NCBI RefSeq assembly: GCF_963921235.1
Contig: NC_086108.1
Coordinates: 46,316,001-46,380,000, forward strand
Source of the DNA: Mobula hypostoma
Taxonomy: Eukaryota
Length of the DNA: 64,000 nt
Direction: 5' to 3'
The notes beneath the pieces are model-generated. The model saw only the letters and a program-made list of their open reading frames with translations. It was not told the origin of the DNA and made no database searches. Made by a program: the position numbers and the translations under genes. The stretch's first letter is position 1, and each line of letters begins with the position of its first letter. This document shows positions 20,047 to 31,892 of this stretch, one piece after another.

Positions 20047-20483
20047 TGTTGCGGAAAAGTCTCAGGAGCAGCAGACAGAACAAATCAGGCCGACTCAGAG
20101 AATTGTTTCAGACTAAAGGACTTTACTTACACATTAGATAATGGAGAGCCTTTTTTCCTAAAAGTGGTGTTCAGAAGCTCTGGTTAGCTTTCAGGCACGC
20201 TTCATTATATAGACACAGGGTACATAACTAAAAGCACTTAACAATAACATTGCTCGACCGTGATCTGAGGCCTAAAATGTAACAAACATCGTGACCTTGA
20301 ACTTGACCTAAATTTCAACAAACAACAGCATTACGTAAATGCGGCGCCAGAACTTTTTTCTTCAGACATTATCAAGGACTTTCAGCTAAATTCTAAGAGC
20401 AAAGACTTTCGCTGAATTTGAAGAGCATTCACAAGCTATTAGGTTAACCCCTACATATTCAAAGAGTCTTAAATTCTTCCACA
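20047..20483 (-). repeat. ERV 3' LTR (437 bp)
   Basis: TGTTGCGG...TTCCACA on +; direct repeat of 30033-30461; preceded on the minus strand by purine tract AAGGAGGGAAT (20484-20494). Confidence 0.95.
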
Positions 20484-20530
20484 ATTCCCTCCTTGTTGAT
20501 CCTTTCAGATCAACATTCCTCATGAGGTAT

Positions 20531-21857
20531 TTACTCCTCTTCCTCATAGGGGGATTCATATCCCTCTGGAAAGGGTCTTTCTTTGCCAGGATGTACCTCT
20601 TTTCCCCACCAGTTTCACCTACTGCGCATTTCTCTCACCATCTGGGGTACCATAGGGACATTTTCAGGTCCGAGTAAGGCTCTTTTCATTAACTGGTAAC
20701 AACACAATCGTAATGCTCCACATACACAGCACCCTAAAACACAAACCATTACCACTATAATTATCCCATGGGTAATCCAGATTCCCCAGCCAGAAAACCA
20801 TCCCTCTATTATTTCCCACCATTTCGTTCCTGAACCAAAATTCTTAAGCTGTTTCCTTATCTTTCTAATCTCCTCAATTTTTCCTCTTATGTGTTGACTA
20901 AAGTCAGTTATGTTTTCTAAGGCATCGGGAATATAAGTACAACATTCCTGCCCTATCACAGCGCATGTTCCTCCTTTTTCAGCTAAGAGTAGGTCCAGAG
21001 CCATTCTATTTTGCAAGGCTACCATCGTAAGGGCAACTACTTCTGTTGTTAGGTCTTTCACTTGCGTCTGCACGTCAGTTAGGGCATCAGTAGTGTCATT
21101 GGCCAATTTCTCTAGAGCGGCTGCCATATTAATACTTTCTCGCGAATTTCGGGTCACACCAAATGGGGGAAATGCTACCATCCAAAACCTTTCACTTTCC
21201 GTTATCCCTCGCTTACTTCGCCTTAAATAAGGGTGTTGCAATATATCTTTTATAGCATGCATGGAGGGCACTATATAGGCCAAATAACAACAGCCCGTCC
21301 AGTTTCCTGGGGACACATTCCCATTTTTGCCTGGCGGCCCTGGAAACCAAGGATAAGCTCTTTCCCCACATACCGCCTCTGTTTAGTACAAGAGCTATTA
21401 CCCAAAATGTCCCATTTCCCCCTGCCGTATTACGATAACAAATTCCATTTACAGTTTTCTGTGTATTTACTAACTCAAAGGAGGGCATCCTTTTTCCCTC
21501 CATCGGGGTCCAGAGGCACCATCCTTTGAAACAGGTACACCCACAATCCCCTTCATTGACATCAGAGTCCTTTATCATCTTCTGCCAATCTCTTGTTCTA
21601 AAGTTGGAATAAGATGTGTTAAATTGGTTCCTAAGTCTCACAGAAAACATTTCACTTCCGTTCAGGGTGACCCATTCTAGGGACATTCCCTGGGCGGCAT
21701 GCTGAGGTATCTTTACACACACCCAACAAGTGTCCAACTCTTCACTTTGTTGACTGGTGCAAGTGTGACATAAAGACAGAAAGGTATTTTTGGATAAGGC
21801 CATACTAACTCCCCCCAGTATCAGTCCCCATAAAAGCATCTGGCTTGTCAGCTTCAT
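20531..21857 (-). pseudogene. env: ERV envelope (gamma-type SU/TM), frameshifted
   Basis: Signal-like MKLTSQMLLWGLILGGVSMALS; CWVC (CXXC) motif; furin site RRSKR; ISD LQNRMALDLLLAEKGG; CX6CC (CAVIGQECC); hydrophobic TM. Frameshift between ORFs 21213-21893 and 20615-21316. TGA at 20615-20617 is followed in frame by 27 more codons. Confidence 0.93.
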
Positions 21858-24458
21858 ACTTCCTTGTCTTCCAACTCCTGGTGCAGTTTGCACCTAGTAG
21901 TGTGAATCCATTCTCCTTTTCCTTCAACCTTTACCGCTGTTCGAGTTGTTAGCAGCACTGGGTAGGAGCCTTTCCACCTGGGAGAGAAAGAATCTTTATT
22001 CATTGATCTCACATATATTCTATCTGCCGGCTTTACGGATGCAGGTTACCTTCAGTTAAAGGTGCCTGGGCTTGCCGGACCCTCTCATACAATTTCCCTG
22101 CCTTCTGACACAATGCCTGTGCATATTTCAGTGTCTTCTCATCTTTCCATATTAGCGCTACCTTTTCTGGGGTCATGGGGGCTTAGTTCCTGTTGTCATA
22201 GGCCGCCCCATCAAAATTTCATGAGGGCTAAGTCCTGTATTTCTATTCTTCTGATTTTCGCAGAGTGTACGTTACTAGGGGCATTGCCTCTGGCCGTCTG
22301 AGACCGTTTTGCTGACAAACTTTTGTCAAAGCTGCTTTTATTTCCCCGTTTGCTCTTTCCACCATACCCAAGGACTGAGGCTTTTAGGGGATATGCAATC
22401 TCTGCTGGAACCCCAAGGCTTCCTTCAGTCCCTGTACTACTTTATTTGTAAAATGGGTTCCCATGTCGCTACTTACCCCTAGGGGAATTCCAAATCTAGG
22501 TATAATTTCCAGGTTGGAGCAGGTGATCAAATTTAGCGGGCGTCTTTCCTCTGTTGTTTTGTTGGCAAACTAAACAAGTTTGTGCTACCTTCTTGGTAGT
22601 TACTGTTTTCTCTGGGGTGTACCATTGTTGAGTGATGGCATGCTGCATCCCTCCTTTGCCCATGTGAGCCTGGCCATGTGCCAGGTGAGCCGGGGCAAAA
22701 ATAAATTATGCGGGTACACTGCTCGGCCGTCTGGATGACGCCATAGCCCGGTATTCCGGTAACATGCAGATTTGCTCCAGGTACATTTCTCTTGCTGTGA
22801 GGCAAGATTTTGGGCTTCCTGCAACCTCTGGATGTCCATACACACAGGGAGCTCCTTCCTTCCCGATTCAGCCCGAGGGGTCTGTGGCACAGGTTCTCGC
22901 TGTAGGGCCACCTGTTTTGCTACCATGTCTTCAAACTGGTTTCCCTTGGAGACCTTACTTTCGGCTGAAGTGTGTGCCTCGCACTTAATTATTACTAAAG
23001 TCTGTGGCAACTGTATAGCTTCTAAAAGGTTCAGTACGAAGGAGGCGTGTTTAATCGCTTTCCCTGACGAGGTGATAAATCCTCCATTTTTCTACAATCG
23101 CCCATAGTCATGTGCTATCCCAAACGCATAACGTGAGTCAGAATAAACATTGGCAGCTTTTCCTTAGGCCAAAATTGAAGCAAGCTCAGGTAATGGCATA
23201 GAGTTCTGCTGCCTGCACTGATATTCCTATTGTCAAGGCATAAGCTTCTACTATCTCATGGGGAGTTACTATAGCATACCCTGCCAGCAACAGATCATCT
23301 CTTGGGCAGTGCAAAGAGCCATCTGTGAAAAGAATTAAATCAGTGTTATCAATAGGTTCGCTTCTCAGATCTGGTGGGGGAATAGTAGTGGCTTCCACTG
23401 CGAGCAAAGAGTCATAGTCATTCCCATCCTGCTGTGCAGATGGTAATGGTACAAAAGTAGCTGGATTAATAGCCGGAGATCTTTTGAACGTACAGTTGGA
23501 TCGAGAGAGAAGAATCACCTCATAACCTGTCCTTCTGGCTGTGGTAAAATGCTGAGTAGCAGCATGGGGCATTACGGCATGGGGTACTATCACAGTACAC
23601 GGGTGATCCAATACAATAGGAATAGGTTTTTCTACCATTACATTTAGGTCATGGAAGGCTTTCTCCCTTTCGGGTGTCCAGTCCACAATGAGGGGCTCCG
23701 TTTTCACTGTAGCAGCACGCATTACTGCATCCCTCTCCCGGTTTTCGGGAATCCACTGTCAACAGTGCCCTACCGTGCCCAGGAAAGAAAGAATGGAATT
23801 TTTTGTTTTGGGGACTGGGATCTTCTTTATTGCTTTTATTCGATCCCTTCCCAAACTTCGCCAACCTTTACTGAGCTGGAATGCAAGGTACTGGATAGTC
23901 TCTTGGCAAAACTGCATTTTCTCCTCAGACACCCTGTGCCCTCTTCTCGCCAAAAGTTCAAGGAGTGTTAACGAATTGATCAGACATTGTGGCCCTGTAG
24001 CAGAAGCTATCCGGATGTCATCTGCATACTGAGTCAGCGTGGAATATTTGGACAGCTGGCATTCAGCCAAATCATTTTTAACTGCTGCAGCATAAACTGT
24101 GGGGCTTTCAGTATATCCCAGGCAGACGTGCCCACGTATATATTGCTCATTCTTATAAGCAAAGGCAAATAAGTACTGGCTATCCTCACGCAAAGGTATG
24201 GAGAAAAATGCTGGGCACCAATCGACTACAGTAAAGGTACGAGCTCCCGCAGGTATAGAAATAAACATGATGTAGGTGTCCAGCACCAGCGGAGTGATAG
24301 GGATGACTATCTTATTAATGGCTCTTAGGTCCTGCACAAAAATGCCATTCATTTCTCCGCAAACACGAGGAAATCTGCAGATGCTGGAATTTCAAGCAAC
24401 ACACATCAAAGTTGCTGGTGAACGCAGCAGGCCAGGCAGCATCTCTAGGAAGAGGTAC

Positions 24459-24494
24459 AGTCGACGTTTCAGGCCGAGACCCTTCGTCAGGACT
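24459..24494 (-). ncRNA. Minimal type I hammerhead ribozyme (Penelope-associated)
   Basis: Minus strand reads AGTC-CTGACGA-A-GGGTCTCGGCCT-GAAAC-GTC-GACT: core CUGANGA/GAAA, GUC site, stem I AGTC/GACT. Confidence 0.8.
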
Positions 24495-25914
24495 AACTGA
24501 AGGAAGAGTTAGTAAGAGATTTGAAAGTGGGAGGGGGAGGGGGAGATCCAAAATGATGGGAGAAGACAGGAGGGGGAGGGATGGAGCCAAGAGCTGGACA
24601 GGTGATTGGCCAAAGGGATATGAGAGGATCATGGGACAGGAGGCCCAGGGAGAAAGAAAAGGGGGAGGTGGGGGGAAACCCAGAGGATGGGCAAGGGATA
24701 TAGTGAGAGGGACAGAGGGAGAAAAAGGAGAGAGAGAAAAAGAATGTGTGTATATAAATAAATAACGGATGGGGTACGAGGGGGAGGTGGGGCATTAGCA
24801 GAAGTTAGAGAAGTCAATGTTCATGCCATCAGGTTGGAGGCTACCCAGACGGAATACAAGGTGTTGTTCCTCCAACCTGAGTGTGGCTTCATCTTTACAG
24901 TAGAGGAGGCCGTGGATAGACATATCAGAATGGGAATGGGACGTGGAATTAAAATGTGTGGAATTAAAATCTCCATCCTCCTGCCCCCCTACTAGGAAAG
25001 GGTTCCCCTTGTCCTCACCTACCACCCTACCAGCCTCCGGGTCCAACATATAATTCTCCATAACTTCCGCCATCTCCAACGGGATCCCACCACTAAGCAC
25101 ATCTTCCCTCCCCCCCCTCTGCTTTCCGCAGGGATCGCTCCCTACACGACTCACTTGTCCATTCGTCCCCCCCCATCCCTCCCCACCGATCTCCCTCCTG
25201 GCACTTATCCTTGTAAGCAGAACAAGTGCTACACATGCCCTTACACTTCCTCCCTTACCACCATTCAGGGCCCCAGACAGTCCTTTCAGGTGAGGCAACA
25301 CTTCACCTGTGAGTCGGCTGGGGTGATATACCGCGTCCGGTGCTCCCGATGTGGCCTTCTATATATTGGCGAGACCTGACGCAGACTGGGAGATCATTTT
25401 GCTGAACACCTACGCTCTGTCCGCCAGAGAAAGCTGGATCTCTCAGTGGCCACACATTTTAATTCCATGTCCCATTCCCATTCTGACATGTCTATCCATG
25501 GCCTCCTCTACTGTAAAGATGAAGCCACACTCAGGTTGGAGGAACAACACCTTATATTCCGGCTGGGTAGCCTCCAACCTGATGGCATGAACATTGACTT
25601 CTCTAACTTCCGCTAATGCCCCACCTCCCCCTCGTACCCCATCCGTTATTAATTTATATACACACATTCTTTCTCTCTCTCTCCCTTTTCTCCCTCTGTC
25701 CCTCTGACTATACTCCTTGCCCATCCTCTGGGTTTTCTCCCCTCTCCCTTTTCTTTCTCCCTGGGCCTCCTGTCCCATGATCCTCTCATATCCCTTTTGC
25801 CAATCACCTGTCCAGCTCTTGGCTCCATCCCTCCCCCTCCTGTCTTCTCCTATCATTTCAGATCTCCCCCTCCCCCTCCCACTTTCAAATCTCTTACTAA
25901 CTCTTCCTTCAGTT

Positions 25915-25950
25915 AGTCCTGACGAAGGGTCTCGGCCCGAAACGTTGACT
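25915..25950 (+). ncRNA. Minimal type I hammerhead ribozyme
   Basis: AGTC-CTGACGA-A-GGGTCTCGGCCC-GAAAC-GTT-GACT. Confidence 0.75.
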
Positions 25951-26329
25951 GTACCTCTTCCTAGAGATGCTGCCTGGCCTGCTGCGTTCACCAGCAACTT
26001 TTATATATTAATTTCTCCGGCCTGTTTTTGGGATAGGTAAAATAGGGGTGTTATACATGCTTTGTGTCTTCACCAGCACCCCTTGCTGCAATGTGTCAAT
26101 TACTGGAGCGACACCTTCTTCAGCTTCAATACAGCGCAGTGGCACTTTCTTTTTAGAGTAACTTTATACTCTGGGGCTGTTTGGGCCTTTCCCACATGAT
26201 TGCTATGTTGGGCCCATAGGTTCCCTGGAACCCGTGCTAAGGCTCTAGGGGGAAGTAGAGGGTCTTCTGGTGGTGGCTGTTGCTTTTCAAGGGTTGTTTC
26301 CCAGCTCTTGGACTTTAACTTAATTTTCC

Positions 26330-26810
26330 CTTCCTTTTCGTTAAAGACGTCTATTCGGGCTTCCTGTCCCAGTACCAGCAGTTATAGTATTAACGGCCTT
26401 CGTTTCTTTCGCCAATCATTTTACCATCGTCCCAATATCTTTATGGTTCTCTGGTGGTTTAATGGCCACTGTCAAATGAGGCATTGAGGAGTCCCCTAAT
26501 CGGAATCTTTTTTTCTGATCTTCCACTAAGTCTACCAGGATCTCTAATCCCTCGGGACCAAAATATACATACAGTGTTGCCTTCAGCTTTAAGGGTGTGC
26601 AGCCTGATCATAGTGTGGGTCAGTTTGTAAAGTGCAATAGACTGTGCAATGGAGCTGCTTCTTCCTTCGGCTGCTATTAATCGAGTATTGCAGATTTTGC
26701 GTGTAGTGGTTGGCTGGTCTTATCAATGTGTCATACAGTCTCTGAACTTGCCAAGCATAGAGATTGCTATCGAGCTGCCAACACTATAGAATGGGTTCTG
26801 AACTGTCCTT
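26330..26810 (-). pseudogene. 2H-phosphoesterase (CNPase-like) domain within ERV pol
   Basis: Manual minus-strand translation: KQLHCTVYCTLQTDPHYDQ (LHCTV 26640-26654), a frameshift, then LYVYFGPEGLEILVDLVEDQKKRFRLGDSSMPHLTVAIKPPENHKDIGTMVK (PHLTV 26467-26481). Two HxT motifs between PR and RT; outer boundaries approximate. Confidence 0.8.
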
Positions 26811-26984
26811 TTCTCACCCATTCATTAATTTTAGCATTTGAGGGACCCTATTTTGAGGAAGCTCCATGTATATACCTTCAGCTGTACAGTGCAGTGTTGC
26901 CCCTAATTTACAAAGGGTCTGCGGACCCAGCAGGGGAAGCGGGGCTGTTTTAAATATAATGAAGGTGTCTGTTAAAAGCTTACC

Positions 26985-27759
26985 CTTCATTCTCTTTTTC
27001 TCTTTTCCTGCCTTTTTTTTTCCTTTTCGGGCGCTTTTTAAAGTCATCTCTAGTGCTGCTAACACTCCCTTCAGCTCCCTCAGCTTCAGTTCCTCTTTCC
27101 TGAGACCCTTCTCTTGTTATAGTGATGTCTGCTCCCAGGGGGTGTCAGGTGCCTGAACTTCTGGCATGGGGGTTGGAAGGAGTGGGTGCGGGTCATCCCA
27201 AGGCAGTCGTTGTCGTTATTAAATCATTTATTTCACTATTGGGTGCCAATGGGGCACTGGCCGGTACGGGGAGTTGGGGATAAAGTCCCGTGGCAGGTTC
27301 CGTTTCAGCCCCAGCCTTCTCTGTTTCGGGCTGCTTAATTTCCTTTTTCTTTGGAGGTTGGTGTCTTTTAGCCACCTCCTTCCATCATTTAAAACGTCTT
27401 AACATGTAATCAGCATCCCAGTTTGGGTTGCCGTCCCCATTTCGGGTGGTATCGTCCCAGTGTTAGATTAGTCTCAAATTAAAACTTCCCCTATACGGCC
27501 AATCCCCATGTGACCACTCACTACTGAGTGTTACGGCATAAGGATCATCTCTGGTCTCTCTGATTACCATATCCGCCGGGGATCCAGGCGGGACTAAGGG
27601 GCCTCACATTTGCTGGTGGTGCCATTTTATCTTATTAATCTTTTTTGGCGGTCTTTTTCCTACCTGCAGTTGAGTGTTCAAAGCCTTCGTCTTACCTCCG
27701 GAACTCTTCGGTTTATTAGCAGGATCAGCGCTAGCCGATCAGCTGCTGGCACTTCCCAT
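26985..27759 (-). pseudogene. gag: ERV gag remnant (matrix and Pro-rich region; capsid/nucleocapsid apparently deleted)
   Basis: ATG at 27759 gives MGSASS (myristoylation-like) then a stop; class I matrix motif WPYRGSF near 27,490; GLYPQLPVPASAP; abrupt junction to protease C-terminus near 26,985. Confidence 0.75.
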
Positions 27760-27995: not shown

Positions 27996-29855
27996 AACAC
28001 AAAATAATCTGCAGATGCTGGGGTCAAAGCAACACTGACAGTATGCTGGAGGAACTCAGCAGGCCGGGCAGCATCAGTGGAAACGATGAGTCGACGTTTC
28101 GGGTTGGAACCCTTCGTCAGGACTGAACAAAGAAGGAGGGGGAAGGATTTGAAGAATGCTTGTATGTTCAGTTGAAAAACCAGTAATTTGAAAGACAAAG
28201 GGGTGGGGGAGGGGAAGCAGGGACGTCATAGGCAGGTAAACAATGGGTAGTAGAAGGAGGCGGAACCATGAGGGAGGTGATAGGCAGCTGGGGGAGGGGC
28301 GGAGTAAAATAGGGATAGAGAAAGGGAGGGGGAGAGAATTACCGGAAGTTGGAGAATTCTATGTTCATACCAAAGGGCTGGAGACTATCTAGACGGTATA
28401 TGAGGTGTTGCTTCTCCAACCTGAGTTTAGCCTCATCCTGGCAGTAGAGGAGGCCATGTCTGGACATATCTGAATGGGAATGGGAAGCAGAGTTGAAGTG
28501 GGTGGCTACTGGGAGATCCTGTCTGTTGTGGCGGACGGTGCGGAGGTGCTTGACGAAGCGGTCCCCCAATCTGCGTCGGGTTTCACCGATGTAGAGGAGG
28601 CTGCACCGGGAGCACCGGATGCAATAGGTGACCCCAACAGACTCACAAGTGAAGTGTTGCTTCACCTGGAAGGACTGTTTGGGGCCCTGAATGGTGGCAA
28701 GAGAGGAGGTGTAGGGACTGGTGTAGCACTTACGCTTACAGGGATAAGTGCCGGGTGGGAGATCCGTGGGGTTGGATGTGCGGATAAGAGAGTCACGGAG
28801 GGACCTATCACTGCGGAAAGCGGAGAGTGGTGGAGAGGGAAAGATGTGCTTAGTGGTGGGGTCCTGCTGAAGGTGGCGGAAGTTGCGGAGGATAATGTGC
28901 TGGATCCGGAGGCTGGTGGGGTGGTAGGTAAGGACTGTCTCTGTTGTGGTTGCAGGAAGATGGGGTGAGGGCGGAAGTGCGAGAAATGGAGGAGATGCGG
29001 GTGAGGGCATCATTGATGACGGTGGAAGGAAAACCACGATCCTTAAAGAAAGAGGACATTTGAGATGTCCTGGAACAGAAAGCCTCATCCTGGGAGCAGA
29101 TGTGGCGGAGACGGAGGAACTGGGAATAGGGAATGGCATTTTTGCATGTGGCAGGGTAGGAAGAGGTATAGTTGAGGTAGTTATGAGAGTCAGTGGGCTT
29201 GTAGAAGATGTTAGTGGACAGTCTGTCTCCAGAGATGGAGACTGAGACTTCGAGAAAGGGGAGAGAAGTGTCCGAGATAGACCAAGTGAATTTGAGGGCT
29301 GGGTGGAAGTTTGAAGTAAAATCGATGAAATTAACGAGCTCAGCATGGGTGCAGGAAGCAGCACCAATGTAGTTGTCAATGTACCGAAGGAAAAGTTGGG
29401 GAGCAGTACCAGAATAGGCTTGGAGCACAGACTGTTCCACATAACCAACAAAGAGGCAGGCGTAGCTGGGTCCCATGCGAGTTCCCATAGCTACTCTTAG
29501 TCTGAAGAAAGTGGGAAGAGCCAAAAGAGAAGTTATTAAGTGTGAGAACCAGTTCCGCCAACCGGAGGAGGGTGGTGGTGGTGGGGAACTGGTGAGGTCT
29601 ATGATCCAGGAAGTAGCGGAGGGCTTTGAGACCTTCTTGATGGGGAATGGAGGTGTATAAGGATTAGATATCCAAAGTAAAAATGAAGTGGTTGGGACCT
29701 GGGAACTGGAAGTTATTGAGGAGGTGGAGGGCATGGGATGTATCCCGGATGTAGGTGAGGAGGGACTGAACTATGGGTGACAAAATAGAGTCCAGGTAGG
29801 CATATAGTTCGGTGGGACAGAAGACAGAAGCAGGCAGAAACTATGGGTCTACCAT
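27996..29855 (-). mobile_element. Penelope-like element (RT + GIY-YIG endonuclease), 5'-truncated, inserted in ERV leader
   Basis: GRPIVSAC, AMGTRMGPSYACLFVGYVE, FLRYIDN, KNAIPYSQFLRLRHICS, VTYCIRCSRCSLLYIGETRRRLGDRF. Near-TSD AGGACATCTG 27986-27995 / AGGACACCTG 29856-29865. Confidence 0.93.
28089..28124 (-). ncRNA. Minimal type I hammerhead ribozyme, second Penelope subfamily
   Basis: Minus strand reads AGTC-CTGACGA-A-GGGTTCCAACCC-GAAAC-GTC-GACT; stem II has a different sequence but still pairs. Confidence 0.8.
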
Positions 29856-30011
29856 AGGACACCTGTCTCCCACTTTCAGCTAGGAGACTAATTTTCCTTC
29901 CCAACTTGGAAGGCACCTTTCTGTCTTGCTTCTCCTTATCCGCTTAGGGTTCTTTTCCTAGAATTGCGTAAGAGCAGCTGTCTTGCTTCCGCTCAAGTGT
30001 ATCCTATAGCA

Positions 30012-30032: not shown

Positions 30033-30461
30033 TGTTGTGGAAAAATCTCAGGAGCAGCAGACAGAACAAATCAGGCCGACTCAGAATTGTTTCAGACTAA
30101 AGGACTTTATTTACACGTTATATAACGGAGAGCCTCTTTTCCTAAAAGCGGTGTTCAGAAGCTCTGGTTAGCTTTCAGACACGCTTCATTATATAGACAC
30201 AGCGTACGTAACTAAAAGCACTTATCAATAACATTGCTTGACTGTGAACTTAGGCCTAAAATGTAAAAACAACGTGACCTTGAACGGCCTAAATTTCAAC
30301 AAAGAGCATTACGTAAATGCAGCTCCATAACATTTTTCTTTAGACATAATCAAGGACTTTCAGCTAAATTCTAAGAGCAGGAACCTTAGCTGAATTTTAA
30401 GAGCATTCACAAGCTATTAGGTTAACCCCTATATATCCAAAGAGTCTTAAATTCTTCCACA
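30033..30461 (-). repeat. ERV 5' LTR (429 bp)
   Basis: TGTTGTGG...TTCCACA on +; minus-strand TATA (CTATATAA near 30,190) and AATAAA (near 30,108). Confidence 0.95.
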
Positions 30462-31417
30462 AAAGGTAATTAAAATCAGAAGTAGTATAAATCAAGGTGG
30501 TGGTTGAAACGTGAAAGTTTACAAATAAATTCAAAATTAGCCAAAATTAGGGAAGTATTGGCAAATTGGGGGGCAATTGTCCACTCTCGGAACAATGTCA
30601 GGTCAACTCTTTTGCACATTAAGTACGCAAATAACTGCACCATGTCCAACACTGCCTCAAGATGGAAGACAAAAACTGAGCTAAAAATGTAATAATTGTT
30701 GGACAATGCCAAGCAAAAAAAGAAGAAAATTCATATTGGACAACTTACTTTGGGGAAACAAAAGAGGAAAGTACAAAAGACAGCTCCGGTGATGCAGGAC
30801 AAATGCAAACCTTGGGTTATGAGTTTGTACAGTCCCCATGAATCTCCGTGTTCCAGTTTCCTACCCCATACCAAACATATGCTAATAGATTCATCGTACA
30901 CCTTAACCAACCAGCACATCCCCTGTCCCCTAATGTGCGGGTATTTGGCCAATTAAGTGGTAAATGATGGTACGTGTGAGAAAATAGATTACATGGAATA
31001 AAGGAGGAAACAGGGATGAAGAATTGTCCTGAGAGTTGCCATAGACTGGAGGGGCCGAATGGCTTTCTTTCATGGTGTAAGAAAACATGAGTAGTTCTTT
31101 CTCTGAGGTAAAGAATATCGCACTAACAGCATTCTATCAGTTCTGTAAGATATGTATGCTCAATGAATTTATTTGCATTGCAATTTGCTTAACCACAAAC
31201 CAGAGTGAACAGACAAAGCTCAAATAATCTCAAAGTTTCTAATGTAATCTGCTCATGTGCTATTTGAGTAATTTGAACTGTTGACTCAAAACAAACCAAT
31301 GTGTTCAGGCAGTGAACTATTCACCTACGTTTATGACTGTGTGATTCTTATCAAGTCATAGTTTAAAACTACTTATCAAGTTTCAGGCTGGTAAAATGTT
31401 ATTACTGGGGCCCATTT

Positions 31418-31892
31418 GAACAACACCTTATATTCCGTCTGGGTAGCCTCCAACCTGATGGCATGAGCATTGACTTCTCAAACTTCTGCTAATGCCCCAC
31501 TTCCCCCCTCGTACCCCACCCATTATTTATTATATACACACATTCTTTTTTTTTCTCTCTCTCCTTTTTCTCGCTCTGTCCCTCTCACTATACCCCTTGC
31601 CCATCCTCTGGGTTTTCCCCTCTCCCCCTTTTCTTTCTCCCTGGGCCTCCTGTCCCATGATCCTCTCATATCCCTTTTGCCAATCACCTGTCCAGCTCTT
31701 GGCTCCATCCCTCCCCCTCCTGTCTTCTCCTATCATTTCGGATCTCCCCCTCCCCCTCCCACTTTCAAATCTCTTACTAACTCTTCCTTCAGTTAGTCCT
31801 GACGAAGGGTCTCGGCCTGAAACGTCGACTGCACCTCTTCCTAGAGATGCTGCCTGGCCTGCTGCATTCACCAGCAACTTTGATGTGTGTTG
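31418..31892 (+). mobile_element. Penelope-like 3' fragment with intact hammerhead at 31795-31830
   Basis: Near-identical to 25540-26001; AGTCCTGACGAAGGGTCTCGGCCTGAAACGTCGACT. Confidence 0.88.

What the first reader, a model, noticed from the sequence alone, without database searches (positions are those of the whole stretch)
26330..26810. Retroviral pol carries a 2H-phosphoesterase (CNPase-like) domain between protease and reverse transcriptase
Seen: about 600 nt separate the protease C-terminus (LCKLGATLHC, near 26,890) from the RT start (VPGNLWAQ, near 26,230), where MLV-type pol has almost nothing. Hand translation of the minus strand gives QLHCTVY..DPHYDQ (26640-26654). After one frameshift it gives VYFGPEGLEILVDLVEDQ..PHLTVA..KDIGTMVK (26467-26481). 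Established: paired HxT/S motifs define the 2H phosphoesterase superfamily, and the pattern resembles vertebrate CNPase (LHCTT...AHxTLG). Viral 2H enzymes (coronavirus ns2/NS4b, rotavirus VP3 C-terminus) destroy 2-5A to block OAS-RNase L. Inference: the ancestral virus packaged a nucleotide phosphodiesterase released from Gag-Pol. It might counter oligonucleotide immune signals or process 2',3'-cyclic phosphate RNA/tRNA ends. I recall 2H domains being noted in some teleost retroviral polyproteins, so the architecture may not be wholly new. Its function, and its presence in this lineage, look little explored. This copy is broken and invisible in the ORF track.
Basis: partly seen in the sequence, partly recalled or inferred. 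Interest (0 to 1): 0.88.

Follow-up and report, generated by a model that had tools for sequence, protein, structure and literature searches.

The report
CNPase-like enzyme domain in retroviral pol
A long-dead endogenous retrovirus in this vertebrate genome carries, between its protease and its reverse transcriptase, a domain folded like the cellular enzyme CNPase; such domains have been noted before in fish retroviruses, but what they do for a retrovirus has never been tested.

Summary
On the minus strand, 654 nt lie between the protease C-terminus (26886-26915) and the RT N-terminus (26196-26231). They encode a broken domain of about 185 codons (26259-26813) with two HxT motifs: LHCTV at 26640-26654 and PHLTVA at 26464-26481.

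It is a real domain, not a private insertion. The same genome has at least 41 DNA matches and 84 protein-level matches. These fall into six divergent ERV groups (my grouping), and a sawshark database protein (P0002, 38% identical) also carries it. Where the flanks survive, the order is PR, domain, RT.

No sequence library names the domain. An AlphaFold2 model built only from ERV sequences (pLDDT 73.7) matches the CNPase catalytic domain: Foldseek E 5e-7, VIA Z 11.9 over 176 residues. The next rows are other 2H phosphoesterases at Z 6.3 or less. An independent ESM Atlas model gives the same top hit (TM 0.71).

Novelty is lower than claimed. Two papers already state that fish retroviruses carry 2H or CNPase domains, and BFVD models of walleye retrovirus proteins match the model. 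Function is untested. I favour 2',3'-cyclic-phosphate chemistry carried into the virion with RT. This window copy is dead and belongs to an internally deleted subfamily.

The parts
26259..26813 (-). Broken CNPase-like 2H phosphoesterase domain. It is read in two frames, with four in-frame stops and two frame changes.
   Evidence: Translation. Alignment to 26 other copies and to divergent groups. Fold of the homologous intact domain.
26640..26654 (-). Motif 1, LHCTV. The H-C-T codons are 26643-26651.
   Evidence: HxT is kept in 17 of 27 family copies. It aligns with LHCTT of the host CNPase exon.
26464..26481 (-). Motif 2, PHLTVA. The H-L-T codons are 26470-26478.
   Evidence: HLT is kept in 25 of 27 family copies. 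It aligns with SHITLA of the host CNPase exon.
26817..26981 (-). C-terminal remnant of the retroviral protease (KLLTDTF...LCKLGATLHC...QMLKLMNG). The N-terminal half with the active site is missing in this subfamily.
   Evidence: Comparison with L014 and L020, which hold about 1.2 kb more. Pfam RVP matches the homologous frames of L057 (E 4.6e-6) and L020 (E 0.067).
26008..26231 (-). N-terminal part of reverse transcriptase (VPGNLWAQ... and ...NTPILPIPKTGRRN), in two frames.
   Evidence: It is collinear with residues 295 onwards of P0002, whose RVT_1 domain is at 375-541.
23759..24391 (-). Core of reverse transcriptase. It is separated from its N-terminus by an inserted retroelement fragment.
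   Evidence: Pfam RVT_1, E 3.3e-16.
21854..22569 (-). Integrase remnants (core domain and MLV-type C-terminal domain).
   Evidence: Pfam MLVIN_C, E 8.6e-15. Pfam rve, E 0.004, below its cut-off.
20615..21893 (-). env, with a gamma-type transmembrane subunit.
   Evidence: Pfam TLV_coat, E 8.8e-16, on 20615-21382.
20047..20484 (-). 3' LTR, in the element's own orientation.
   Evidence: blastn: 90.6% identity over 438 nt to 30033-30462. Direct repeats D2 and D4.
30033..30462 (-). 5' LTR, in the element's own orientation.

Best explanation
The stretch is the decayed copy of an accessory enzyme domain of a class I retrovirus with a gamma-type env. The domain is about 185 residues long and belongs to the 2H phosphoesterase superfamily. 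Its closest structural relative is the catalytic domain of vertebrate CNPase/RICH.

Shown here: the domain is encoded in frame between protease and reverse transcriptase. The fold is CNPase-like. Both catalytic-type HxT motifs and the aromatic residue five positions after the first His (LHCTxxY against LHCTTKF in the host enzyme) are conserved across divergent ERV groups. The coding sequence evolved under some purifying selection.

Inferred: in the living viruses the domain was made as part of Gag-Pro-Pol, packaged, and cut out by the protease. It would then sit in the core beside RT. A junction motif F-[EQ]-[KR]-Q-Q-P-P, seen in five of the six groups and in the sawshark protein, precedes the RT.

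Inferred chemistry (about 0.35): CNPase-type hydrolysis of 2',3'-cyclic phosphodiesters. The substrate would be free 2',3'-cNMPs or RNA ends left by metal-independent RNases, on the tRNA primer or the genomic RNA. This would clear products of a host RNA-cleaving defence at the start of reverse transcription.

The window copy itself has no function. It carries stops and frameshifts, its RT is interrupted by another retroelement, and its subfamily lacks the protease active-site half.
For: Fold:
- AF2 on an alignment of ERV sequences only, without templates, gave pLDDT 73.7 and pTM 0.74.
- Foldseek against PDB gave 50 hits at E <= 0.001. All 40 listed rows are CNPase or RICH catalytic domains; the best is 4wc9, E 5.3e-7, TMq 0.61.
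- VIA-align against 48,161 chains gave CNPase 2xmi_A at Z 11.9, rmsd 3.7, 176 of 190 residues aligned. Rows 2-21 have Z 6.3-3.5, and 19 of those 20 bear names of phosphodiesterase or ligase-like proteins that I recognise as 2H.
- The ESM Atlas's own model of P0002 hits a vertebrate CNPase cluster at TM 0.71 over residues 99-275.

Motifs and register.

Architecture:
- L057 has a 358-aa open frame with RVP at 20-110, then the domain, then the RT N-terminus.
- PR, domain and RT are collinear in groups B, D and F, and domain then RT in group C.
- P0002 has a PR C-terminus, the domain, and RVT_1.

Selection: dN/dS is 0.23-0.59 in 12 of 14 within-group pairs, and 0.80 and 0.85 in the other two.

A weak sequence hint: the group E copy L056 matches Pfam 2_5_RNA_ligase2 at E 0.005, below its cut-off.

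Precedent: PMC9503650 section 3.4.5 and PMC4977317 (passages read). BFVD matches to walleye retrovirus proteins.
Against: - No profile library recognises the domain. Pfam finds no 2H family at E <= 1 in P0002, or at E <= 10 in P0001 and the window pieces. The host-genome scan with the CNPase HMM found the host gene only.
- PDB sequence searches found no 2H chain.
- hhalign to the host CNPase gives the right register but only P 0.005 and probability 3-7%.
- The model is of medium confidence, and I could not inspect the active-site geometry.
- The Arg two residues before the second His in the host CNPase (SRSHITLA) is not kept.
- The spacing between the motifs is about 62 residues, against 79 in mouse CNPase (H230 to H309 by the PDB titles). 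In the host enzyme the two motifs lie on separate exons, so I did not count its spacing.
- 15 of 27 family copies share a 5-nt deletion between the motifs. In four of them a second indel restores the frame, so about 30 codons are scrambled. That subfamily therefore spread without an intact domain. It also lacks gag CA/NC and the PR N-terminal half, so it was probably copied in trans.
- Nothing here bears on the substrate.
Confidence: 0.78

Rival explanations
1. The domain is a cyclic-dinucleotide phosphodiesterase. It would destroy 2'3'-cGAMP-type messengers made when cGAS senses the reverse-transcribed DNA. Being packaged with RT puts it in the right place at the right time.
For: 2H enzymes that cut cyclic oligonucleotides are in the fold list: phage Acb1 7t27 at Z 4.5 and penguinpox cGAMP PDE 9bkq at Z 4.2. 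Acb1 proteins also appear in BFVD. That retroviral DNA is a cGAS ligand is my own knowledge, recalled.
Against: These matches are much weaker than the CNPase match (Z 11.9). No sequence feature specific to Acb1 or poxvirus PDEs was found. No assay was done.
Confidence: 0.2
2. The domain is a 2',5'-phosphodiesterase that degrades 2-5A and so blocks OAS-RNase L. This is what coronavirus ns2, rotavirus VP3 C-terminal domain and AKAP7 do.
For: Rotavirus VP3 C-terminal domain (4rpt, Z 6.3) is the second-best fold match. MHV ns2 (4z5v, Z 4.7) and AKAP18 (Z 4.9) are also listed. PMC9503650 names this role for RNA-virus 2H domains (passage).
Against: The fold match to that clade is about half the CNPase score. 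By my recollection, not checked here, the OAS-RNase L pathway is poorly represented or absent in fishes.
Confidence: 0.12
3. The domain does not act as an enzyme for the virus. It is a captured copy of the host restriction factor CNP, used as a decoy or dominant-negative, or simply as a structural spacer in Pol.
For: CNP is described as an interferon-stimulated gene that antagonises HIV-1 particle assembly (PMC10761555; title and start of abstract seen in the listing). A subfamily with scrambled inter-motif codons still multiplied.
Against: Both HxT motifs and the flanking aromatic residue are the most conserved columns across the groups. That conservation is expected for catalysis and not for a spacer. 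Identity to the host CNPase is only 16-20%, so any capture is ancient. The scrambled subfamily is also deleted for gag and PR, so it says little about an autonomous virus.
Confidence: 0.1
4. There is no real domain. The region is a fast-evolving linker, and the two HxT triplets are chance.
For: No Pfam, PDB-sequence or word-based homology hit. The first AF2 attempt was unfolded, with pLDDT 43.5.
Against: Two independent structure predictions converge on CNPase. Six groups and a second species conserve the motifs. dN/dS is below 1.
Confidence: 0.02

Closest known systems
[quoted passage not shown]
   Same: Best fold match by a wide margin (Z 11.9; Foldseek E 5e-7). Shared features in the same order:
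- LHCT first motif with an aromatic residue at +5
- H-[ILV]-T-[LV]-A second motif
- an N-terminal L-Y-x-W-x-L strand against YFGWFL in the host
- a central F-x-P...G...V...Q...[FW] hairpin
   Different: Only 13-19% identity in the Foldseek alignments. It does not reach the Pfam CNPase model. There is no N-terminal P-loop domain and no free C-terminus, because it is flanked by PR and RT. The segment between the motifs is shorter (about 62 against 79 residues). The Arg at -2 of the second His is not kept.
2H domains of walleye dermal sarcoma virus and walleye epidermal hyperplasia virus (Mazumder et al. 2002, as cited in PMC9503650)
   Same: A 2H-fold domain inside a polyprotein of a fish retrovirus. 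BFVD models A4GTG3 (WDSV) and Q9WHI8 (WEHV-1) match the model at E 9e-5 and 1e-4, probability 1.00.
   Different: Both BFVD entries are named 'Envelope polyprotein', so there the domain seems to sit in Env and not between PR and RT. Identity is 12-13%. They were not found by HMMER with P0001. I could not read Mazumder 2002, so its stated position is unknown to me.
Teleost epsilon-like ERVs with extra reading frames for CNPase or macro domains (Basta et al. 2009, as summarised in PMC4977317)
   Same: Class I fish ERVs that carry a CNPase-type gene.
   Different: The review describes them as 'additional open reading frames' in ray-finned fish. Here the domain is an in-frame part of Pro-Pol, in ERVs whose only database relative is from a sawshark. 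Basta 2009 is not held, so whether it shows the PR-2H-RT order is open.
Viral 2',5'-phosphodiesterases (MHV ns2, rotavirus VP3 C-terminal domain) and AKAP7/AKAP18
   Same: 2H fold and two HxT/S motifs. They are viral accessory enzymes embedded in, or next to, replicase proteins.
   Different: Much weaker fold match (Z 4.7-6.3). They come from RNA viruses, not retroviruses. Their substrate, 2-5A, is not established here.
Retroviral dUTPase (betaretroviruses, non-primate lentiviruses, ERV-L); my own knowledge, recalled
   Same: An extra nucleotide-metabolising enzyme domain carried in frame inside Pro or Pol of some retroviral lineages only.
   Different: Unrelated fold and chemistry, and different positions in the polyprotein.

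Membership tests
2H phosphoesterase superfamily | Two H-x-T/S motifs | tested here: met
   HCT and HLT are present in the window. They are kept in 17/27 and 25/27 family copies. All six groups keep motif 1 and five of six keep motif 2; the single group F copy reads DLT. P0002 has HCT at 155 and HLT at 217.
2H phosphoesterase superfamily | The 2H alpha+beta fold | tested here: met
   Model pLDDT 73.7. The top match and 19 of the next 20 VIA rows are phosphodiesterase or ligase-like proteins that I recognise as 2H. All 40 listed Foldseek rows are CNPase or RICH. The ESM Atlas structure rows are CNPase, tRNA_lig_CPD, LigT and AKAP7.
2H phosphoesterase superfamily | The motifs coincide with the catalytic motifs of a known member | tested here: met
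   hhalign of A2 against the host CNPase exons puts LHCT on LHCT and PHLT on SHIT. The statistic is weak (P 0.005, probability 3-7%). The three-dimensional positions were not inspected.
2H phosphoesterase superfamily | Match to a curated sequence model of a 2H family | tested here: inconclusive
   Nothing for the window pieces, P0001 or P0002. One sub-threshold hit of L056 to PF13563: E 0.005, 17.3 bits against a cut-off of 27.
2H phosphoesterase superfamily | Phosphodiesterase activity dependent on the two His residues | not testable with these tools
   This needs an enzyme assay.
CNPase family (Pfam PF05881; vertebrate CNP/RICH) | Score over the PF05881 cut-off | tested here: not met
   hmmscan of P0002 at E <= 1 lists RVT_1 only. 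The six-frame scan of the host genome with PF05881 at E <= 10 returned 7 matches, all on contig C91. Six are over the cut-off and lie at the host CNPase locus. No ERV copy was returned.
CNPase family (Pfam PF05881; vertebrate CNP/RICH) | Closest structural relative is the CNPase catalytic domain | tested here: met
   Z 11.9 against 6.3 for the next row. TM 0.71 to a CNPase cluster.
CNPase family (Pfam PF05881; vertebrate CNP/RICH) | N-terminal P-loop (kinase-like) domain and a free, lipid-modified C-terminus (features recalled) | tested here: not met
   The domain is preceded by the protease and followed directly by RT in one frame.
Retroviral Pol-embedded accessory domain | In frame with PR and RT, and at the same place in independent groups | tested here: met
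   The L057 358-aa frame. The L020 264-aa frame with PR and the domain's N-terminal half. Collinear tblastn hits in L043, L057, L062, L063, L048, L044 and L047. P0002.
WDSV/WEHV-type retroviral 2H domain | Same position in the viral genome | tested here: not met
   The matching BFVD entries are named Envelope polyprotein. The position within them is not given by the tool.

The most novel reading that the evidence does not exclude
PR-2H-RT may mark a whole clade of retroviruses of cartilaginous fishes. They would package a further enzyme, beside PR, RT/RNase H, IN and (in some lineages) dUTPase, in the core. The domain would have been captured long ago from the host gene CNP, which mammals now use as an interferon-induced anti-retroviral factor. 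It would have been kept through at least six ERV groups because it removes cyclic-phosphate RNA ends or cyclic-nucleotide alarm signals at the moment of reverse transcription. The Env-located 2H domain of walleye viruses would then be a second, independent acquisition of the same fold by retroviruses.
Probability: 0.25. Interest if true: 0.75.

Novelty: new member of a known kind. Interest (0 to 1): 0.45.

Why it matters
Retroviruses are usually credited with a small, fixed set of enzymes. A 2H/CNPase-like domain is a rarely mentioned extra. It has been listed in surveys since 2002 and 2009, but I found no assay of it (the two primary papers were not readable).

This window adds three things.
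- The domain can sit inside Pro-Pol, next to RT.
- It is specifically CNPase-like, not ns2/AKAP7-like.
- It persisted through several divergent ERV groups in a genome whose only database relative is a shark protein.

2H enzymes elsewhere destroy immune nucleotide signals (2-5A, cGAMP, CBASS messengers) or repair RNA ends. The host's CNP is itself reported as an anti-retroviral interferon-induced protein. A simple enzyme assay on a natural intact domain could therefore reveal a retroviral counter-defence, or an RNA-end activity, that is not yet documented.

Tried and rejected
Sequence searches that found nothing useful:
- Pfam on the window's ORF pieces and on the 211-aa open read of L014 found no family.
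- PDB sequence searches with P0001 and with profile A2 gave chance hits only.
- Word-based homology searches found nothing but P0002 itself: P0001 'longer', and P0002 residues 95-300 both 'near' and 'longer'. So I cannot say whether full-length Pol proteins with this domain are in that collection.
- HMMER over 1.84 billion representatives with P0001 gave one hit, P0002. The degenerate query may have missed relatives.
- The scan of viral contigs with P0002 found no pattern match.

Structure:
- The first AF2 run, on a shallow alignment (A1, 15 rows, one family plus P0002), gave pLDDT 43.5 and I discarded it.

Host gene:
- I considered that the domain might be a recent capture of the host CNPase and rejected it. 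The host gene on C91 is only 16-20% identical.

Papers:
- Mazumder 2002 and Basta 2009 are not held.
- Han 2015 on shark ERVs does not mention such a domain (passages).
- The searches 'CNPase-like + retrovirus', 'phosphodiesterase domain + endogenous retrovirus + protease + reverse transcriptase' and 'Q2VF30' found nothing.

Expression:
- No RNA holder is listed.
- Two runs guessed to be RNA gave one and two short contigs, covering 4 and 16 of 30 bins. I do not count this as evidence either way.

Earlier notes of this scan: none on this kind of element.

Full report
WHAT IS IN THE WINDOW

The finding lies inside a degraded provirus on the minus strand.
- Its LTRs are at 20047-20484 and 30033-30462. 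They are 90.6% identical over 438 nt.
- Pfam recognises the env (TLV_coat, E 8.8e-16), an MLV-type integrase C-terminal domain (E 8.6e-15), a weak integrase core match, and an RT core (RVT_1, E 3.3e-16).
- This makes it a class I ERV with a gamma-type envelope.
- The RT is split. Its N-terminus is at 26008-26231 and its core at 23759-24391, with a foreign retroelement fragment between them.

CHECK OF THE OBSERVATION

- LCKLGATLHC is at 26886-26915.
- LHCTV is at 26640-26654.
- PHLTVA is at 26464-26481.
- VPGNLWAQ starts at 26231.
- The gap between the PR end and the RT start is 654 nt.

It has four in-frame stops (26814-16, 26784-86, 26589-91, 26416-18). It has a deletion with frame change at about 26590 and a second frame change near 26382.

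IS IT A REAL, CONSERVED PART OF THE VIRUS?

- A DNA search of the window's own 3.48-Gb assembly found 41 matches at 75-100% identity.
- I aligned 27 copies and read each in the codon frame of the one copy (L014) that is open across most of the domain. I marked breaks and did not fill them.
- The HxT triplets are kept in 17 of 27 copies (motif 1) and 25 of 27 copies (motif 2).
- HMMER over 1.84 billion representative proteins found one relative, P0002 (E 8e-21, 38% identity). A source names it an uncharacterised protein of the sawshark Pristiophorus japonicus.
- P0002 has a PR C-terminus, the domain with HCT at 155 and HLT at 217, and RVT_1 at 375-541.
- Searching the genome with the P0002 domain gave 84 matches at E <= 0.01 among 150 scored candidates.
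- By inspection I sorted the matches into six divergent groups. A is the window's family. B is L043, L049, L053, L057 and L062. C is L044, L047, L052 and L060. D is L048, E is L056 and F is L063.
- Rows of the six groups are only 26-35% identical to the sawshark domain.
- All six groups have a copy with motif 1. Five have motif 2; the single group F copy reads DLT.
- The most conserved columns are LHCTxxY, YFGxEGL, QxxxFR and PHLTxAxxPP.

Architecture:
- L057 has a 358-aa frame without stops. It reads protease (Pfam RVP, residues 20-110, E 4.6e-6), the domain, and the RT N-terminus.
- tblastn with P0002 shows collinear PR, domain and RT in L043, L057, L062, L063 and L048, and domain then RT in L044 and L047.

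Selection:
- Pairwise dN/dS within groups is 0.23-0.59 in 12 of 14 pairs, and 0.80 and 0.85 in the other two.
- This fits purifying selection during viral life, diluted by neutral decay after integration.

WHAT FOLD IS IT?

Sequence methods fail.
- Pfam finds nothing in the window pieces, P0001 or P0002 apart from RVT_1.
- PDB sequence searches find nothing relevant.
- The only sequence hint is a sub-threshold hit of L056 to Pfam 2_5_RNA_ligase2 (E 0.005).

Structure methods agree with each other.
- A first AlphaFold2 run on a shallow alignment was useless (pLDDT 43.5).
- With 26 rows from all six groups, no CNPase sequence and no template, the P0002 domain folded at pLDDT 73.7 and pTM 0.74.
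- Foldseek against the PDB gave 50 hits at E <= 0.001. All 40 listed rows are CNPase catalytic domains (mouse; rat 2ilx; 'human phosphodiesterase' 1woj) or goldfish RICH. The best is 4wc9, E 5.3e-7.
- VIA-align against 48,161 representative chains, without Foldseek, put mouse CNPase 2xmi_A first: Z 11.9, rmsd 3.7 A, 176 residues aligned.
- Next came the rotavirus VP3 C-terminal domain (Z 6.3) and a run of other proteins at Z 5.4-3.5: AKAP18, a phage PDE, Usb1, plant CPDase, MHV ns2, ASCC1, Acb1, LigT and penguinpox cGAMP PDE. Unrelated folds appear only from Z 2.5 down.
- The ESM Atlas holds its own model of P0002. Its best structural neighbour is a vertebrate CNPase cluster (TM 0.71 over residues 99-275). 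The other rows are tRNA-ligase CPD, LigT and AKAP7 families.

Register with the host enzyme:
- The host genome's own CNPase exons align with the ERV profile in the expected register.
- YFGWFL aligns with LYCWQL, LHCTTKF with LHCTxxY, LFVTPRTAGARV with YFGPEGLGxxV, and SHITLA with PHLTxA.
- The statistic is weak: P 0.005, probability 3-7%. Identity is 16-20%.

I conclude that this is a 2H phosphoesterase domain of CNPase-like shape. It is not a member of the Pfam CNPase family by score, and it is not a recent copy of the host gene.

THE WINDOW'S OWN SUBFAMILY

- Compared with L014 and L020/L021, the window copy and most of its close relatives lack about 1.2 kb. In L014 and L020 that stretch holds the nucleocapsid zinc knuckle and the N-terminal half of the protease.
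- 15 of 27 copies also share a 5-nt deletion between the two motifs. 10 of 27 lack it. The window copy and L024 have larger gaps there.
- In L007, L010 and L012 a further 10-nt gap restores the frame, and in L015 a 2-nt insertion does. About 30 codons between the motifs are therefore scrambled in those copies.
- My inference is that this subfamily was non-autonomous and was copied in trans. Its damaged domain therefore says little about whether an autonomous virus needs the enzyme.

HOW IT PROBABLY WORKS

Shown: the position in the polyprotein, the fold, the conserved catalytic-type residues, and some purifying selection.

Inferred:
- The domain is translated as part of Gag-Pro-Pol, packaged, and released by the protease.
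- A junction motif F-[EQ]-[KR]-Q-Q-P-P precedes the RT in five of the six groups (A, B, C by tblastn; A, B, D, F) and in P0002. It may mark the RT N-terminus or a cleavage site.
- The fold is far closer to CNPase and the tRNA-ligase CPD clade than to the 2-5A or cGAMP degraders. I therefore favour, at about 0.35, hydrolysis of 2',3'-cyclic phosphodiesters on nucleotides or on RNA ends of the tRNA primer or genomic RNA inside the core.
- The rivals are cGAMP-type messenger destruction (0.2), 2-5A destruction (0.12), and a non-catalytic decoy or spacer (0.1). No tool result discriminates among them.

WHAT IS KNOWN

[quoted passage not shown] 2002.
- PMC4977317 (passage read) states that some epsilon-like ERVs of ray-finned fish carry additional reading frames for a CNPase or macro domain, citing Basta et al. 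2009.
- Neither primary paper is held.
- My model matches BFVD models of WDSV A4GTG3 and WEHV-1 Q9WHI8 (E about 1e-4, probability 1.00). Both are named 'Envelope polyprotein'. It also matches an unnamed entry, Q2VF30_1 (E 2e-5).
- So a retroviral 2H domain is a known kind. The PR-2H-RT position differs from the walleye viruses. Whether it is already in print I could not establish.
- Han 2015 on shark ERVs does not mention it.
- CNP is reported as an interferon-stimulated antagonist of HIV-1 assembly (PMC10761555; title and start of abstract only). That makes a viral CNPase-like domain more intriguing, but it proves nothing.

DISTRIBUTION

DNA contigs at least 90% alike cover all 30 bins of the stretch in runs of two other organism labels, B and C. 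The ERV family is therefore shared with related hosts.

VERDICT

It is a new member of a known but unstudied kind. It is of moderate interest, mainly because a cheap enzyme assay could settle a function that has been open for over twenty years.

Noticed in passing
window 24392-26007 and about 28000-29950; repeats 25652-25951 / 31532-31831 and 25542-25631 / 31418-31507: Fragments of another retroelement family interrupt the provirus, one inside RT and one in the gag/leader region. A third copy lies just outside the 5' LTR. Their ORFs carry a CSRCGLLYIGET...H-rich module with a weak Pfam GIY-YIG match (E 0.002). By my recollection this looks Penelope-like.
   Followed up: partly
window about 26982-26985, compared with L014 and L020/L021: The window copy and most close relatives lack about 1.2 kb that L014 and L020 retain. 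That stretch holds the nucleocapsid zinc knuckle and the protease N-terminal half. The window's subfamily is therefore an internally deleted, probably non-autonomous derivative.
   Followed up: partly
window about 26589-26592; same place in L002-L013 and L015-L017: A 5-nt deletion between the two HxT motifs is shared by 15 of 27 copies. Different second indels restore the frame in four of them, near an A-run before motif 2.
   Followed up: partly
G000 contig C91, 33.776-33.782 Mb and 33.955-33.962 Mb (L028-L033): The host CNPase exons appear twice, about 180 kb apart, with identical scores. In the first copy the exon order on the strand looks rearranged. This may be a tandem duplication or an assembly artefact.
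   Followed up: no
L043, L048, L057, L063 and P0002, at the domain-RT junction (window 26259-26290): A motif F-[EQ]-[KR]-Q-Q-P-P is conserved across five of the six groups just before the RT N-terminus. It may be a protease cleavage site or the start of RT.
   Followed up: no
L002, 2894-3440: A Tc1/mariner-type transposase reading frame has inserted into that ERV copy downstream of the domain.
   Followed up: no
window 26784-26786 and 26814-26816: At two of the window copy's stop codons, contigs of other runs and most other genomic copies read a sense codon. These stops are therefore private to this copy.
   Followed up: partly
BFVD entries A4GTG3 and Q9WHI8: The walleye retrovirus proteins that match the 2H model are named Envelope polyprotein and are unusually long (1159 and 1317 aa). 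In those viruses the 2H domain would then be part of Env.
   Followed up: no
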